DNA of 64,000 nucleotides from Octopus vulgaris (Eukaryota). Numbering within the stretch: the first letter of the stretch is position 1; each line of letters begins with the position of its first letter. Below the pieces are notes generated by a model. It had not been told where the DNA came from, searched no databases, and worked only from the letters and a program-made list of their open reading frames with translations. The stretch covers positions 45,756,001 to 45,820,000 of the forward strand of contig OX597819.1 of the NCBI GenBank assembly GCA_951406725.2, written 5' to 3'. The position numbers and the translations under genes were made by a program. Below, in pieces: positions 6,330 to 52,357 of the stretch.

Positions 6330-6742
6330 ATACTCTGTTACTTGTTTCAGTCATTTGGCAGTAGTCATGCTGGAGCACCGCCTTTAGTCGAACAAATCGA
6401 CCCCAGGACTTATCCTTTGTAAGCCTAGTACTTATTCTATCGGGTTTTCTTTTTGCCGAACCGCTAAGTTACGTGGACGTAAACACACCAGCATCGGTTG
6501 TCAAGCGATGTTGGGGAGACAAACACAGACACACAAACATACACACACACACATATATATATACGTATATATAGATATACATATACATATATATATGTAT
6601 ATGTATATATGTATATATATATATATATATTGGGAAGACAAACACAGACACACAAACATACACACACACATATATATATATACGTATATATATATATATA
6701 TATACATGTATATATGTATATGTATATATATGTATATATGTA

Positions 6743-6779
<37 letters not shown>
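6330..6779 (-). mobile_element. SINE family B, 3' part (interrupted by the HHR array)
   Basis: CATGCTGGAGCACCGCCTTTAGTCGA...GGTTGTCAAGCGATG then (CA)/(TA)n; uninterrupted copies at 23675-24037 and 57915-58340 continue with the sequence found at 10215. Confidence 0.85.
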
Positions 6780-6787
<8 letters not shown>

Positions 6788-7010
6788 TCAATATAGGGTG
6801 GCAAAAAAAAATTTTGTAGAATTCTTTTGCCACCAGCGGCCTAGTGGGAAAAAATTAAATAGTCAAAAACCATTTTTAAGTTCAACATCAACAATCAAGG
6901 AACGGCCATAATAGGCCATTCACCCACTAGAAATAACAGCCAAAAGCTTTAACCGCAAAATAATGTCAATTCCGTAAACCAGGAGAAAATTGAAAAACAT
7001 TTACCCTGTA

Positions 7011-7117
7011 ATTTCTTAGACGATGCACCGTTTCATCTTCAGTTTAATGGAAAACTAACCTGATTAAATTAAATCAAGCCAATCTACCATAGGCCCTTAG
7101 ATTCATCAGTAAGAAAT
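7011..7117 (-). ncRNA. Type I hammerhead ribozyme (inverted arm copy)
   Basis: Reverse complement of the HHR at 7949-8055. Confidence 0.85.
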
Positions 7118-7452
7118 AGCCAAAACCGGAACAGATATTTTTCACGAGGCATTCTCATTGCTACCTCGTCAATATCTGACCTAAAATTTTCAAATCGTCG
7201 CACTCGCGCCAAATTTATCGGCAGCAAATAAATATAAGCCGCCGATTCCATTACGGAATTAACCAGAAAATTCATAATTAATCAATATAGGGTGGCAAAA
7301 AAAATCGGGTGGAATCGTGTGGAATCGGCGGCTTATATTTATTTGCTGCCGATAAATTTGGCGCGAGTGCGACGATTTGAAAATTTTAGGTCAGATATTG
7401 ACGAGGTAGCAATGAGAATGCCTCGTGAAAAATATCTGTTCCGGTTTTGGCT

Positions 7453-7559
7453 ATTTCTTACTGATGAATCTAATGGCCTATGGTAGATTGGCTTGATTTA
7501 ATTTAATCAGGTTAGTTTTCCATTAAACTGAAGATGAAACGGTGCATCGTCTAAGAAAT
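7453..7559 (+). ncRNA. Type I hammerhead ribozyme, predicted cleavage after GUC 7551
   Basis: Stem I ATTTCTTA(7453-60)/TAAGAAAT(7552-59); CTGATGA(7461-67); stem II ATCT/AGAT(7532-35); GAAA; stem III ACGGT-GC-ATCGT; GUC. Confidence 0.85.
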
Positions 7560-7948
7560 TACAGGGTAAATGTTTTTCAATTTTCTCCTGGTTTACGGAA
7601 TTGACATTATTTTGCGGTTAAAGCTTTTGGCTGTTATTTCTAGTGGGTGAATGGCCTATTATGGCCGTTCCTTGATTGTTGATGTTGAACTTAAAAATGG
7701 TTTTTGACTATTTAATTTTTTCCCACTAGGCCGCTGGTGGCAAAAGAATTCTACAAAATTTTTTTTTTTGCCACCCTATATTGATTAATTATGAATTTTC
7801 TGGTTAATTCCGTAATGGAATCGGCGGCTTATATTTATTTGCTGCCGATAAATTTGGCGCGAGTGCGACGATTTGAAAATTTTAGGTCAGATATTGACGA
7901 GGTAGCAATGAGAATGCCTCGTGAAAAATATCTGTTCCGGTTTTGGCT

Positions 7949-8055
7949 ATTTCTTACTGATGAATCTAAGGGCCTATGGTAGATTGGCTTGATTTAATTT
8001 AATCAGGTTAGTTTTCCATTAAACTGAAGATGAAACGGTGCATCGTCTAAGAAAT
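7949..8055 (+). ncRNA. Type I hammerhead ribozyme, cleavage after 8047
   Basis: Same motif as 7453-7559. Confidence 0.85.
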
Positions 8056-8444
8056 TACAGGGTAAATGTTTTTCAATTTTCTCCTGGTTTACGGAATTGA
8101 CATTATTTTGCGGTTAAAGCTTTTGGCTGTTATTTCTAGTGGGTGAATGGCCTATTATGGCCGTTCCTTGATTGTTGATGTTGAACTTAAAAATGGTTTT
8201 TGACTATTTAATTTTTTCCCACTAGGCCGCTGGTGGCAAAAGAATTCTACAAAATTTTTTTTTTTGCCACCCTATATTGATTAATTATGAATTTTCTGGT
8301 TAATTCCGTAATGGAATCGGCGGCTTATATTTATTTGCTGCCGATAAATTTGGCGCGAGTGCGACGATTTGAAAATTTTAGGTCAGATATTGACGAGGTA
8401 GCAATGAGAATGCCTCGTGAAAAATATCTGTTCCGGTTTTGGCT

Positions 8445-8551
8445 ATTTCTTACTGATGAATCTAATGGCCTATGGTAGATTGGCTTGATTTAATTTAATC
8501 AGGTTAGTTTTCCATTAAACTGAAGATGAAACGGTGCATCGTCTAAGAAAT
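8445..8551 (+). ncRNA. Type I hammerhead ribozyme, cleavage after 8543
   Basis: Same motif as 7453-7559. Confidence 0.85.
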
Positions 8552-8940
8552 TACAGGGTAAATGTTTTTCAATTTTCTCCTGGTTTACGGAATTGACATT
8601 ATTTTGCGGTTAAAGCTTTTGGCTGTTATTTCTAGTGGGTGAATGGCCTATTATGGCCGTTCCTTGATTGTTGATGTTGAACTTAAAAATGGTTTTTGAC
8701 TATTTAATTTTTTCCCACTAGGCCGCTGGTGGCAAAAGAATTCTACAAAATTTTTTTTTTTGCCACCCTATATTGATTAATTATGAATTTTCTGGTTAAT
8801 TCCGTAATGGAATCGGCGGCTTATATTTATTTGCTGCCGATAAATTTGGCGCGAGTGCGACGATTTGAAAATTTTAGGTCAGATATTGACGAGGTAGCAA
8901 TGAGAATGCCTCGTGAAAAATATCTGTTCCGGTTTTGGCT

Positions 8941-9047
8941 ATTTCTTACTGATGAATCTAAGGGCCTATGGTAGATTGGCTTGATTTAATTTAATCAGGT
9001 TAGTTTTCCATTAAACTGAAGATGAAACGGTGCATCGTCTAAGAAAT
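8941..9047 (+). ncRNA. Type I hammerhead ribozyme, cleavage after 9039
   Basis: Same motif as 7453-7559. Confidence 0.85.
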
Positions 9048-9433
9048 TACAGGGTAAATGTTTTTCAATTTTCTCCTGGTTTACGGAATTGACATTATTT
9101 TGCGGTTAAGGCTTTTGGCTGTTATTTCTAGTGGCTGAATGGCCTATTATGGCCGTTCCTTGATTGTTGATGTTGAACTTAAAAATGGTTTTTGACTATT
9201 TAATTTTTTCCCACTAGGCCGCTGGTGGCAAAAGAATTCTACAAAATTTTTTTTGCCACCCTATATTGATTAATTATGAATTTTCTGGTTAATTCCGTAA
9301 TGGAATCGGCGGCTTATATTTATTTGCTGCCGATAAATTTGGCGCGAGTGCGACGATTTGAAAATTTTAGGTCAGATATTGACGAGGTAGCAATGAGAAT
9401 GCCTCGTGAAAAATATCTGTTCCGGTTTTGGCT

Positions 9434-9540
9434 ATTTCTTACTGATGAATCTAATGGCCTATGGTAGATTGGCTTGATTTAATTTAATCAGGTTAGTTTT
9501 CCATTAAACTGAAGATGAAACGGTGCATCGTCTAAGAAAT
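9434..9540 (+). ncRNA. Type I hammerhead ribozyme, cleavage after 9532
   Basis: Same motif as 7453-7559. Confidence 0.85.
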
Positions 9541-9926
9541 TACAGGGTAAATGTTTTTCAATTTTCTCCTGGTTTACGGAATTGACATTATTTTGCGGTT
9601 AAGGCTTTTGGCTGTTATTTCTAGTGGGTGAATGGCCTATTATGGCCGTTCCTTGATTGTTGATGTTGAACTTAAAAATGGTTTTTGACTATTTAATTTT
9701 TTCCCACTAGGCGGCTGGTGGCAAAAGAATTCTACAAAATTTTTTTTGCCACCCTATATTGATTAATTATGAATTTTCTGGTTAATTCCGTAATGGAATC
9801 GGCGGCTTATATTTATTTGCTGCCGATAAATTTGGCGCGAGTGCGACGATTTGAAAATTTTAGGTCAGATATTGACGAGGTAGCAATGAGAATGCCTCGT
9901 GAAAAATATCTGTTCCGGTTTTGGCT

Positions 9927-10033
9927 ATTTCTTACTGATGAATCTAAGGGCCTATGGTAGATTGGCTTGATTTAATTTAATCAGGTTAGTTTTCCATTAA
10001 ACTGAAGATGAAACGGTGCATCGTCTAAGAAAT
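9927..10033 (+). ncRNA. Type I hammerhead ribozyme, cleavage after 10025
   Basis: Same motif as 7453-7559. Confidence 0.85.
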
Positions 10034-10153
10034 TACAGGGTAAATGTTTTTCAATTTTCTCCTGGTTTACGGAATTGACATTATTTTGCGGTTAAAGCTT
10101 TTGGCTGTTATTTCTAGTGGGTGAATGGCCTATTATGGCCGTTCCTTGATTGT

Positions 10154-10214
<61 letters not shown>

Positions 10215-10216
<2 letters not shown>

Positions 10217-47645: not shown

Positions 47646-48797
47646 GACAATACTTATGTATGTATGTATGTATGTATGTATGTATGTATGTATGTATGTA
47701 TGTATGTATGTATGTATGTATGTTAAAACTTTAAGCTCAGTGGTTACAGATGATGTTGACTTGTTCTTCTTTTCGGATTATGGCTGCTGTTGCTTAGTGA
47801 GTGGGATTGACTCAGTGCACAGCCTTTCTTCACTTTAAAAACAAATCTTGCACAGGCATTGCACGATAACAATATTGATTAAGCTTCGTATGTATGTATG
47901 TATGTATGTATGTATGTATGTATGTATGTATGTATGTATGTATGTATGTGTGTGTGTATGTATGTATCGTTCATATCTAAATATGTTGAGTCTACGTGCA
48001 ATTTAATAACATGACTTGTTGAACGGAATGGCGGAAAATATACCATATTCTTCAATGCTTCTTTGTAGTAAGACCTACAACGTACACACACCAAAGAAAA
48101 TGAGCAACAAGCTTATGATAAAGTATAACATATTTATAAAACGAAAACATTAAAGAAACAAGCTATATGAACATTCTTTATATTTTATATTGTTGTGCAC
48201 TTTGTATCAATTTATTTCAATACCTTATATAAATCCATACAAAAAGGAAATGACTTGTTTAAGAATGTATCTTCCATCCTGAGACAAAAGGGATTAACAA
48301 AATTTGAATTGGCAAAGCGTTTCTCTGTAGTGGTTTTTTGGGTAAGCATGAATTCTAGGGTTCATAATGCATTAAGATTTCGTTTTCTTGTCTTTTTTCG
48401 TACGTATTTCACGCATTTTAATCATATGCATACACACAAATATGTGTTTGTTTGTGCACCAGTGTATGTACATTATGTGTTTGTGTGTTTGTGTGTGTGT
48501 GTGTGTGTGTTTGATCCTTTATGTTATTTAGTGAAGATCATATGGATAGCGAGAACATGACTAGAACATTTTCTTTTGTTATGGTCTCTCAATGAGATAA
48601 GTGATCAACAAGTAAGGGAGGTTGGTTCGGTTAGATTAGCGTGTGCAGTGTCTGCCTTCGTATGATAATGTAGTTCTAATCGAATTGTAGTGAACTGCAT
48701 GATTGGAAATATACATCTGTATATAAACATTCATCCATACCCTGCGAATACGTAGGTACATACACATACACACATACATACACATATACATACATGC

Positions 48798-48860
<63 letters not shown>

Positions 48861-48866
48861 TATAAT

Positions 48867-50885
48867 ACCTATAGTTTTTTAACAGACAGCAGCATATTCC
48901 CTAATGAACAGAAAGGATGTAAACGTGGATCCTACGGCTGTAAAGACCAACTACTCATCAATAAGATGATCTTAGAAGATTGTCACAAACGACACAAAAA
49001 CTTATCAATAGCCTGGATAGACTATAAAAAGGCTTTTGATAGCCTACCACATAGCTGGATTAGGAAATGCCTTGAAATGTATAAGATAGCACCAACTCTG
49101 CGAAACTTCTTGACTGTAAGTATGAGATCATGGAGAACCACACTAACTCTGAACAGTGACAGTGAATCCCTAAATGCTGGTGATGTAAAAATTTCGTGTG
49201 GCATTTTCCAGGGTGACTCACTGTCACCACTCCTCTTTTGTTTATCCTTAATACCTCTCTCAAAGCTGCTCAATGACGCGCAGTACGGGTATAAAATGTT
49301 TGATAAAAATATAAATCATCTCGTTTACATGGATGATTTAAAGCTTTTTGCAAAAAATGATCAACAACTCAAGGGCTTACTAGCGATAGTCAAACAATTC
49401 AGTGACGACATCAGAATGCAATTCGGCCTCGATAAATGTGCAAAGGCTACCTTTATCAAAGGAAAAATGACAGAAACATCTAACGTTAACCTTGACCAAC
49501 AGAATGTCATAAAAGAACTAGACCCAGCGGAGAGCTACAAGTACCTAGGGATAATTGAAGGGAACGGAATAAGGCATTCAGAGATGAAGGAAAGGATCAG
49601 GAGAGAATGCTATCGAAGAGTGAGAGCAATACTCAAGACAGAGCTGAATGCAAGAAACAGGATCGAAGCAATCAATGCATTAGCTATACCAGTCGTGACT
49701 TACAGTTTCAATATTATTAACTGGTCAATTACTGAAATATGTCAGCTCGACAGAAAAATAAGGAAACTGTTGACAATGCATAGAATGCACCACCCTAAGG
49801 CAGATACAGAACGACTCTATCTGCCAAGAAAAGAGGGAGGCCGTGGTCTTTTGCAACTGGCAATAACAATGAAGATTGCTACAATTGGCCTAGACACCTA
49901 CCTGAAAAACTCTGAGGACTGGATGCTAAAACTTGTCTCAAAACATGAAAACAAGAAAGCATCATACTCAGTCACAAAACAGGCAAAGGAATATCTAAGT
50001 GAACTCCGAATACAACCAATTTCGGAATTAGAGATAGATATACAAGAAACAAGCACAGAAAAAGCTAGGCGCATGAAAACCCGTGCCAAAACTGCGGCCT
50101 TAGATATTCTGAATAATAAATGGCAAGAAAAACCTCTCTATGGCAAATACCCAATGAGAGCGAATAATGCAGATATCGACAAAGCCCTGACCCATCAATG
50201 GCTAATGGCCTCTGGCTTAAAATCTGAAACAGAGGGGTTTATCATAGCAGCTCAAGATCAATGCCTACCAACAAGAAACTACCAGGCCAACATATTAAAG
50301 ATCAGAAGCAGTCCAACGTGTCGTGTATGCAAGCAACAAAATGAAACCATTGACCATGTGGTCTCCAAGTGCAGTCTTCTAGCGCCTACAGAGTATCTCA
50401 ACAGGCACGATAGAGCTGCACAATATATTCACTGGGTAATCTGTAAAAACCTGGATTTGCCCCATGAAAAAAACTGGTGGGAACACAAACCACCCCCAGT
50501 GCTTGAAAATGACCACATCTCACTCCTCTGGAACTTCACCATTCAAACTGACAGGAAGATAGATGCAAATAGGCCAGACATCATATTGAAAAACTTCAAA
50601 CAAAGAACATGCCTCCTCATTGATATGACTGTCCCAATCGATATAAACGTATCTGTCAAGACCTACCAAAAACTGAGCAAATATAAAGATCTTGAAATAG
50701 AAATCAGCAAAATGTGGAAGCTGAAGACTAAAACAATACCTGTTGTCATAGGTGCCCTGGGAATGATAGCAAAAGGGGCTGATAGCTACCTAACTCAGAT
50801 ACCAGGAAACCCAAAAATGGCAGAAGTTCAAAAGATAGTGCTCATGGGAACTGCTCATATCCTACGCAAAATACTCTCTATGTAA
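48867..50885 (+). CDS. Uninterrupted but 5'-truncated ORF of an R4/Dong-like non-LTR retrotransposon: reverse transcriptase, CCHC finger, restriction-like endonuclease
   Basis: Frame open from 48867 ([21 protein letters not shown]); [70 protein letters not shown]. Confidence 0.93.
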
Positions 50886-51802: not shown

Positions 51803-52037
51803 TGAGGGAATATTATTCCAAACTTACAGGGAAAAATTCAATTTAGAAATACTAAATCAAATTTGAAAAAATATAATATACGTATTTAAATCAGAAAAAA
51901 AAACCACCGCCGGCATCTCCCTGCTGGCGAGAGAAAAGACTGCGCTTGCGCAGTGGATTTGAAAAAGATTAGAATGTATAAGCAATGAGATACATGCTGG
52001 ATTGGCCTCGTTGTTTATATATTTAATCTATGGCGTC

Positions 52038-52112
52038 CCTGTTGAAGAAGACTTCGCCTGGTAATTAAATAAATTTTTATTTACTAAAATAAGTCAGAAA
52101 CCATGGTCCAGG
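52038..52112 (+). ncRNA. Type I hammerhead motif (core UUGAAGA)
   Basis: CCTG-TTGAAGA-A-GACTT...AAGTC-A-GAAAC-CATG-GTC-CAGG; palindromic stem III loop. Confidence 0.6.
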
Positions 52113-52357
52113 AATTAGATGGTAAAATGTTTTTATTTTTCAATCCCTTCGAGAATTCATCCTTATTTAGTGGTTTGGACTTTAACTGTTCTTTCTAGTG
52201 TAAAGGAATCCTATGATGGAAGCCACTTAATGTGTTTTAATGTACACTGTATTTTATATGTATAATATATAGTTTATTGACTAATTTTTCTCTACGCTAG
52301 TCCACTGGTAGTAAAAATTTCTAAAATCTTTATGGCTTTATAAAATCTTTGTAGCCA

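What the first reader, a model, noticed from the sequence alone, without database searches (positions are those of the whole stretch)
6780..10157. Young tandem array of a ~496-nt self-cleaving hammerhead unit: candidate large retrozyme / circular RNA system
Seen: seven near-identical hammerhead-bearing copies, each with a complete type I fold (8 bp stem I, CUGAUGA, stem II, GAAA, stem III, GUC). Predicted cuts after 7551, 8047, 8543, 9039, 9532 and 10025 would release 496/493-nt monomers. Established: metazoan non-LTR retrozymes are tandem HHR repeats processed into circular RNAs and are thought to be mobilised by Penelope-like RTs; as I recall, described monomers are mostly ~170-400 nt. Inference: this is a larger, recently active family integrated as a multimer copied from a circular template. 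I cannot confirm it is undescribed.
Basis: partly seen in the sequence, partly recalled or inferred. Interest (0 to 1): 0.95.

Follow-up and report, generated by a model that had tools for sequence, protein, structure and literature searches.

The report
Two-armed hammerhead retrozyme in TA repeats
A short non-coding repeat with a self-cleaving-type RNA motif has copied itself into AT microsatellites as back-to-back arrays that start from two different fixed points, one per end; it belongs to a known class (animal retrozymes), but its layout gives an unusually clear record of how Penelope-like copying may work.

Summary
The array is real and the cut sites are exact, but it is not a plain tandem. 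Six units lie on + (7320-10157), a seventh is inverted (6780-7304), with (TA)n at both ends. It belongs to a young dispersed family (956 exact cores) in a clan of about 4,900 motif matches. The type I hammerhead has 68 nt between CUGAUGA and GAAA, so Rfam misses it. Compensatory changes support it, and it probably cleaves as a dimer. Of 44 simple two-armed insertions, 42 end at unit position ~132 on one side and ~241 on the other; none has the same site twice. Both arms share a haplotype. This is the Penelope-like inverted-copy-plus-tail signature with a 109-nt tail. Best reading: a non-autonomous retrozyme, primed at both ends of a TA cut from two sites on one RNA, probably circular. Cleavage, circles and the partner enzyme are not shown; 496 nt is within the published size range. 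New variant of a known kind.

The parts
6553..6779 (.). (TA)n-rich target, left side; part of a 119-bp flank duplication at 6511-6747
6780..7304 (-). Inverted arm, 525 nt; its RNA 3' end points left and stops at unit position 241 (site B; unit = 7552-8047 counted from the cut)
7011..7117 (-). Hammerhead copy of the inverted arm (core starts 7109, predicted cut between 7019 and 7018)
7305..7319 (.). Head-to-head junction insert, 15 nt, holding a copy of the adjacent TGGAATCG; looks like a templated insertion from end joining (inference)
7320..10157 (+). Direct arm, 5.7 units; 5' end at unit position 265, RNA 3' end at unit position 132 (site A)
7453..7559 (+). First + hammerhead: stem I 8 bp, CUGAUGA 7461-7467, stem II with long inner hairpin, GAAA 7536, self-complementary loop CGGUGCAUCG, GUC cut after 7551. 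Repeated with cores at 7957, 8453, 8949, 9442, 9935
7552..8047 (+). One predicted monomer/circle, 496 nt, no stop-to-stop frame over 65 aa, circular MFE -144.9 kcal/mol (z -5.6 against 40 shuffles)
7649..7683 (+). Hairpin (7649-7670) followed by unpaired U-rich site A (ends 7683); inferred RT start site
7736..7792 (+). Hairpin (7736-7775) followed by unpaired U-rich site B (ends 7792); inferred RT start site. A to B = 109 nt, the 'tail'
10158..10216 (.). (TA)n target, right side; the host repeat resumes after it
   Evidence: the same host repeat runs uninterrupted across its internal TA at about L117:6040-6300 (compared by eye)

Best explanation
A non-autonomous non-LTR retrozyme moved in trans by a Penelope-like (probably Neptune-type) RT-endonuclease. 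Step 1 (inferred): read-through transcripts of arrays are cut by hammerheads working as dimers through the palindromic stem III loop, and monomers or dimers are ligated into ~0.5 or ~1 kb circles. Step 2 (target shown, enzyme inferred): the PLE protein cuts (TA)n on both strands. Step 3 (end positions shown, priming inferred): the two DNA 3' ends prime at two different unpaired U-rich sites, A and B, each just 3' of a conserved hairpin, one site per end, on RNA of one haplotype. Step 4 (inferred): each RT copies on through the ribozyme site for up to about ten units, most simply by going round a circle. Step 5 (junctions shown, pathway inferred): the two cDNA ends are joined head-to-head by microhomology or a short templated insert. 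The result is (TA)n <<<< >>>> (TA)n with one A end and one B end.
For: Fold: on 20 distinct copies from five loop types, 96.5% of cells pair and 10 of 37 pairs change on both sides (4 in stem I, 4 in stem II, 1 in the inner hairpin, 1 at the palindrome centre); slid controls pair at most 44.3%. Inside the core only N7 and H17 vary. Palindrome duplex -17.5 kcal/mol against monomer stem III probability 0.01; a further 1,933 clan matches (control 4), nearly all of the 100 listed with palindromic loops of other sequences. Target: 103 of 106 RNA-3' ends abut (TA)4+, background 7.4%. Rule: of 60 loci, 44 are simple two-armed; 42 A/B, 2 B plus an eroded end, 0 A/A, 0 B/B; sister subfamilies down to 73% identity give 11 A/B, 1 irregular, 0 same-site among 12 two-armed arrays (counted by eye). 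Template: own-arm divergence 0.30% against 1.97% between loci, own arm nearest or tied in 35 of 39. Both arms exceed one unit in 23 of 44; junctions overlap by 2 nt or more in 28, are blunt in 6 and carry inserts in 10. Two young TA-targeting PLE families with RT and GIY-YIG frames exist in G000 and also show short and long ends. A PLE protein cuts and extends both strands and starts internally at two sites bounding the tail (PMC11167929).
Against: No cleavage or circle is shown. Stem II closes with A-U rather than the usual G-C, and A-A or A-C in part of the 474-nt family (6 of 20 unpaired); stem I probability falls to 0.44-0.61 in the circle. Published tests: 8 of 9 Xenopus dimers did not cleave in vitro, and in the anole PLE uncleaved RNA was the main substrate. 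Junctions are weakly enriched near the other arm's start (15 of 44 within 30 nt, p 0.064; 24 of 44 within 50 nt, p 0.011; windows chosen after the fact), as a linear template predicts. No autonomous PLE with sequence like the unit was found in 50 GIY-YIG loci, 30 short-hammerhead loci, 12 clan loci or 4 loci of the second PLE family. A shared haplotype shows one source lineage, not one molecule; conversion between arms could add to it; L069 does not fit. 14 of 60 loci are single-armed by BLAST.
Confidence: 0.6

Rival explanations
1. Same two-site priming by a PLE enzyme, but on a linear uncleaved multimeric transcript (as in L1 twin priming); circles, if made, are not the template.
For: Weak pile-up of junctions near the other arm's start; 4 of 44 B arms are 140 nt or shorter, stopping around site A. 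Unprocessed RNA is the main substrate in vitro for the anole PLE. Unit-to-unit variants inside arms could be inherited from a source array.
Against: 29 of 44 junctions lie more than 30 nt from the other arm's start, whereas linear twin priming (recalled model) puts nearly all of them there. Units within a locus are mostly uniform. The ribozyme fold is kept by compensatory change, so cutting appears selected.
Confidence: 0.25
2. One arm is made by target priming; the inverted arm arises by self-priming or snap-back (antisense template or cDNA), and the end difference is set by endonuclease resolution, as proposed for PLEs (PMC3846280, PMC8557442).
For: 3 of 44 junctions are palindromic with both arms ending at the same unit position (L043, L061, L221). 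The proposals are in print.
Against: 41 of 44 junctions are not mirror-symmetric. Either arm can be the longer (median 873 nt for A, 1,007 nt for B, p 0.75). Copying back along the first arm should end at the same site, which was seen 0 times. Both sites are unpaired and sit 3' of conserved hairpins, as RT start sites would.
Confidence: 0.1
3. A minisatellite: single pLTR-like copies inserted, then grew locally by unequal exchange.
For: Proposed for retrozymes in 10.64898/2026.07.22.740005. Period-2 variants at the window (position 419), L059 and L215, and block differences in the window's last two units, fit later exchange.
Against: It does not give inverted arms with fixed, unequal ends and a different junction at every locus. 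It may modify arrays after insertion.
Confidence: 0.04
4. Assembly artefact (fold-back reads at AT repeats).
For: This locus was not checked with long reads; T-run lengths differ between units.
Against: Arms are not mirror images, carry fixed different ends and locus-specific junctions at dozens of loci; the unit-to-unit joint stands in contigs of runs X16 and X20.
Confidence: 0.01

Closest known systems
Metazoan non-LTR retrozymes (PMC7229834; bioRxiv 10.64898/2026.07.22.740005)
   Same: Dispersed tandem repeats, one type I hammerhead per unit, low GC, non-coding, co-existing with PLEs; length inside the reported 51-972 bp.
   Different: Hammerhead with 68 nt in stem II that Rfam misses; insertions mostly two-armed and inverted with two fixed ends; strict (TA)n target. 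'Inverted' occurs 0 times in the main text of the first paper and only in a reference title of the second. Cleavage and circles are shown there for coral, mussel and axolotl, not here.
Endonuclease-bearing Penelope-like elements, Neptune/Naiad type (PMC8557442, PMC3846280, PMC11167929)
   Same: Partial tandems, adjacent inverted 5'-truncated copy, tail often at only one end, TA microsatellite bias, hammerhead upstream of two internal RT start sites.
   Different: No RT or endonuclease; tail is 109 nt rather than 30-40; both arms are often multimers; the one-site-per-end rule is near absolute here, while the passages read call the tail optional or often one-ended and give no count.
Dimeric type I hammerheads with palindromic loop 3 (PMC4209133; axolotl motifs in PMC7229834)
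   Same: Short stem III capped by a self-complementary loop; predicted to work as a dimer.
   Different: 10-nt palindrome, long branched stem II, A-U at the base of stem II.
L1 twin priming (recalled; search listing only)
   Same: Both target ends prime; head-to-head junction with microhomology.
   Different: Fixed structural start sites, no poly(A), arms cover the same sequence repeatedly.

Membership tests
non-LTR retrozyme | Two or more consecutive tandem units each with a complete type I hammerhead | tested here: met
   Six consecutive + units
non-LTR retrozyme | Non-coding, low GC | tested here: met
   Longest frame 65 aa; GC 0.357 over 8001-10000
non-LTR retrozyme | Dispersed at many loci, from dimers to multimers | tested here: met
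   956 cores; 60 loci mapped
non-LTR retrozyme | No primer-binding site or polypurine tract of LTR type | not tested
   No LTR-like layout seen, but PBS and PPT were not searched
non-LTR retrozyme | Self-cleavage of the transcript | not testable with these tools
   Only covariation and folding
non-LTR retrozyme | Accumulates as circular RNA | not testable with these tools
   Only assembled contigs were available to lay; they cannot show ends or circles
type I hammerhead | Conserved core (CUGANGA, GAAA, NUH) with three helices, open stem I | tested here: met
   Core invariant except N7 and H17 in 20 copies; helices supported
type I hammerhead | G10.1-C11.1 pair typical of canonical motifs | tested here: not met
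   A-U in 13 of 20, G-C in 1, unpaired in 6
type I hammerhead | Loop 1 - loop 2 tertiary contact | not tested
   No tool for it; stem II layout is non-canonical
Rfam hammerhead families | Score at or above the gathering threshold | tested here: not met
   0 matches in the window; none at E<=10 on 6700-8100
autonomous Penelope-like element | RT plus GIY-YIG frame | tested here: not met
   No frame in the unit; no PLE match in the window; 2 flank hits only among 129 family and hammerhead loci
PLE-type insertion | Adjacent inverted 5'-truncated copy, tail at one end, microsatellite bias | tested here: met
   tail is 109 nt, not 30-40
PLE-derived non-autonomous element | Sequence homology to the pLTR of an autonomous PLE | tested here: inconclusive
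   None to the two young families or other loci examined; only a small sample of the 6,136 GIY-YIG candidates was seen

The most novel reading that the evidence does not exclude
Bidirectional rolling-circle target priming: a PLE enzyme dimer holds one circular RNA by two hairpin-marked start sites 109 nt apart, assigns one to each end of a TA cut, and both RTs copy round the circle with strand displacement before the cDNAs are joined. This would explain PLE inverted copies, tandem pLTRs and the one-ended tail with a single mechanism, and would mean that a large class of long-stem-II hammerheads is hidden from standard searches.
Probability: 0.4. Interest if true: 0.8.

Novelty: new variant of a known kind. 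Interest (0 to 1): 0.58.

Why it matters
How Penelope-like elements make tandem and inverted copies and their one-ended tail is stated as unresolved in the papers read. This family is small, non-coding, young and numerous, and its ends obey a near-strict rule, so it gives both a genomic test set and a minimal ~0.5-kb RNA substrate for an in vitro test, with candidate enzymes in the same genome. It also shows hammerheads that Rfam does not find, so counts of animal ribozymes and circular RNAs are probably low. Two-armed insertions are long inverted repeats, a possible source of double-stranded RNA in the host (inference, untested).

Tried and rejected
Rfam: no hammerhead match; the miRNA-type hits at 7193-7380 come from the inversion junction and are far below threshold. 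Expression: no RNA holder listed; 14 runs guessed to be RNA hold 26-46% of the words, but none is on record as RNA and only contigs could be laid (X1, X16, X17, X20), so nothing is concluded on transcription, ends or circles. Partner search: GIY-YIG scan, short-stem-II pattern, blastn and nhmmer of the unit against those loci, 12 clan loci and the PLE fused upstream of a clan array at L238 gave no parent; the L238 fusion stays a single-case lead. Arm 5' ends do not pile up at the ribozyme cut once unit-boundary artefacts were corrected (one search replaces the list). Period test: lag-2 sharing 11 observed against 5.6 expected, but 7 of the 11 come from L059, so it is anecdotal evidence for dimer circles. 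A first structure string was out of register for the inner hairpin and was replaced. The sigma-70 scan is not relevant to an animal; no promoter was identified. Target-site duplications cannot be read inside (TA)n. Earlier scan findings: none. The count of two-armed loci rests on 60 loci, 20 of them the first in order on C1; 12 further C1 clusters and 28 planned sister-family regions were not read. Dfam and Repbase are not available here.

Full report
Observation. The window is G000:C6:45756001-45820000 in a 2.8-Gb genome, rich in microsatellites; from the look of its repeats I take it for an octopus (recalled, not tested). The seventh copy is inverted: a 525-nt - arm (6780-7304), a 15-nt insert, then a 2,838-nt + arm (7320-10157), with (TA)n outside both. 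The element sits in the internal TA run of a dispersed repeat whose uninterrupted form is visible at L117 (by eye).

The ribozyme. Rfam finds no hammerhead because 68 nt lie between CUGAUGA and GAAA. Sister subfamilies in G000 (1,776 and 296 pattern matches, controls 0) are 92-94% and 73-74% identical to the unit. On 20 distinct copies picked by me to cover the variants, the core varies only at N7 and H17; 96.5% of cells pair, 10 of 37 pairs change on both sides, including four in the long-range stem II, and slid controls pair at most 44.3%. The copies are related, so these are few independent events. Stems I and II have probability 0.7 or more in a 109-nt G-allele piece, stem III 0.01, and the loop forms a -17.5 kcal/mol duplex with a second copy; its centre changes GC to AU in 3 of 20, and a wider pattern finds 1,933 more matches (control 4), nearly all of the 100 listed with other palindromes. 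This is the dimer design described in PMC4209133 (passages). Against: the 121-nt T-allele piece folds otherwise, the base of stem II is A-U or unpaired, and older clan members often carry changed cores. The same variants appear in contigs of runs labelled organisms A to D.

The family. The exact core occurs 956 times; the 96 listed on C1 fall in 35 clusters by my count, so roughly 350 insertions. The four patterns total about 4,900 matches (33 and 34 may overlap slightly, and 54 does not require the CUGANGA part). I mapped 60 loci: the window, 39 from the best BLAST hits and the first 20 unread clusters on C1. 103 of 106 RNA-3' ends abut (TA)4+ against 7.4% background. 44 loci are simple two-armed with 3' ends outward, 14 single-armed and 2 complex; two-armed are 12 of 20 in the C1 set. 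End positions fall in two groups, 126-137 (A) and 234-250 (B), with 2 of 106 outside. 42 of 44 two-armed loci are A/B, 2 are B plus an eroded end, none is A/A or B/B; free choice of site would give 42 of 42 with probability about 2e-13. L031 is two adjacent A/B elements of different subfamilies and L060 is A/B with an internal rearrangement. Some single arms have a stub of the other end type (L066, L229). Sister subfamilies give 11 A/B and 1 irregular among 12 two-armed arrays (by eye). Both sites are unpaired, U-rich and lie just 3' of hairpins that each show a compensatory change.

Template. In 39 of the 44 loci with 100 or more shared positions, the two arms differ by 0.30% against 1.97% between loci, and the own arm is nearest or tied in 35. 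Arms read through the cleavage site; both exceed one unit in 23 of 44; either may be longer. Junctions overlap by 2 nt or more in 28, are blunt in 6 and hold inserts in 10 (BLAST-derived). Only 15 of 44 junctions lie within 30 nt of the other arm's start (p 0.064), so a linear twin-priming pattern is at most a minority, though the weak excess keeps it alive. Period-2 variants at three loci, including position 419 in the window, hint at dimer circles but could be later exchange.

Partner. G000 holds at least two young PLE families: a 781-aa frame with RT and C-terminal GIY-YIG and a frame of up to 1,214 aa, 27% identical to each other, both with a Cys linker before the endonuclease (Neptune-like by the description). 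Both end in (TA)n, carry their own short hammerhead-like motifs and show short and long ends (about 40 and 75 nt apart, by eye). Neither resembles the unit. The mobilising enzyme is therefore a candidate, not an identification.

Known work. PMC7229834 (passages and Discussion) defines animal retrozymes, shows cleavage and circles, and proposes PLE RTs. bioRxiv 10.64898/2026.07.22.740005 (parts 1-3 of 5) gives 51-972 bp consensus lengths, pLTR homology in Xenopus, and cleavage in 1 of 9 dimers; its detection used fixed hammerhead descriptors and no mollusc. PMC8557442 and PMC3846280 (passages) describe the inverted copy and a 30-40 bp tail often at one end, and propose endonuclease resolution and antisense self-priming. 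PMC11167929 (parts 1-2 of 4) shows two-strand cutting and two internal start sites bounding the tail, with no strand difference reported. PMC13282606 (passages), an octopus repeat annotation, has no 'ribozyme' or 'retrozyme' in its main text; PMC11722881 (passages) adds nothing on inversions. Seven searches listed no paper on cephalopod retrozymes, two-armed retrozymes or this stem II type. I read no supplements, and Dfam, Repbase and most subscription journals were out of reach, so an existing entry or figure is possible.

Verdict. A real, young non-LTR retrozyme family, met on every sequence-level criterion I tested and untested on cleavage and circles. It works like a PLE passenger; it is not an autonomous PLE and no parent pLTR was found. 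New here are the long-stem-II hammerhead clan and the counted one-site-per-end rule, which favours priming from both ends of the cut over fold-back. Confidence: retrozyme with PLE-type two-site priming about 0.85, with a circular template about 0.6. Interest 0.58.

Noticed in passing
window 51900-52357 (+): A distant single-copy relative of the same clan: changed core TTGAAGA at 52042, long AT-rich stem II, palindrome CCATGG, GUC at 52108, ending at (TA)n.
   Followed up: partly
window 48756-50885 (+): 709-aa frame with RVT_1 (E 3e-22) and a weak zf-RVT match, starting after an (ATA)n run and followed by further (TAA)n; looks like an R4/Dong-type non-LTR element (label recalled).
   Followed up: partly
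L100:431-5672 and related loci L074-L115: Young PLE family (781-aa RT + GIY-YIG frame, upstream frame without Pfam match) whose pLTR hammerhead has a U3-A8 core in place of C3-G8 across many copies; L105 is two-armed with one long and one short end.
   Followed up: partly
L242-L245: Second very abundant PLE family (13,574 first-look candidates, many identical), C-rich, frame up to 1,214 aa, short hammerhead-like motif and about 75-nt tail.
   Followed up: partly
L238:1209-2601 (-): A PLE RT/endonuclease fragment runs directly, same strand and without TA, into an older clan array; possible template switch between PLE and retrozyme RNA, single case.
   Followed up: partly
L078, L107, L109, L116, L091, L073: Other type I hammerhead-like motifs with 39-79 nt stem II and palindromic loops, unrelated to this clan by BLAST; L078 has two in outward-facing arrangement.
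   Followed up: no
L031:1508-4426; L049; L182; L228: Independent elements pile up in the same (TA)n: two retrozyme subfamilies side by side in L031, PLE fragments beside arrays in the others.
   Followed up: no
L230: Older CCATGG-type copies form nested inverted structures at both ends of a ~3.3-kb stretch of unrelated DNA; possible capture or duplication.
   Followed up: no
window 6511-6747: 119-bp duplication in the left flank next to the insertion; relation to the insertion unknown.
   Followed up: no
L122, L124, L126, L135, L139, L141, L143, L148: A dispersed short-stem-II hammerhead-like family, about 15 of the 65 matches, not examined further.
   Followed up: no
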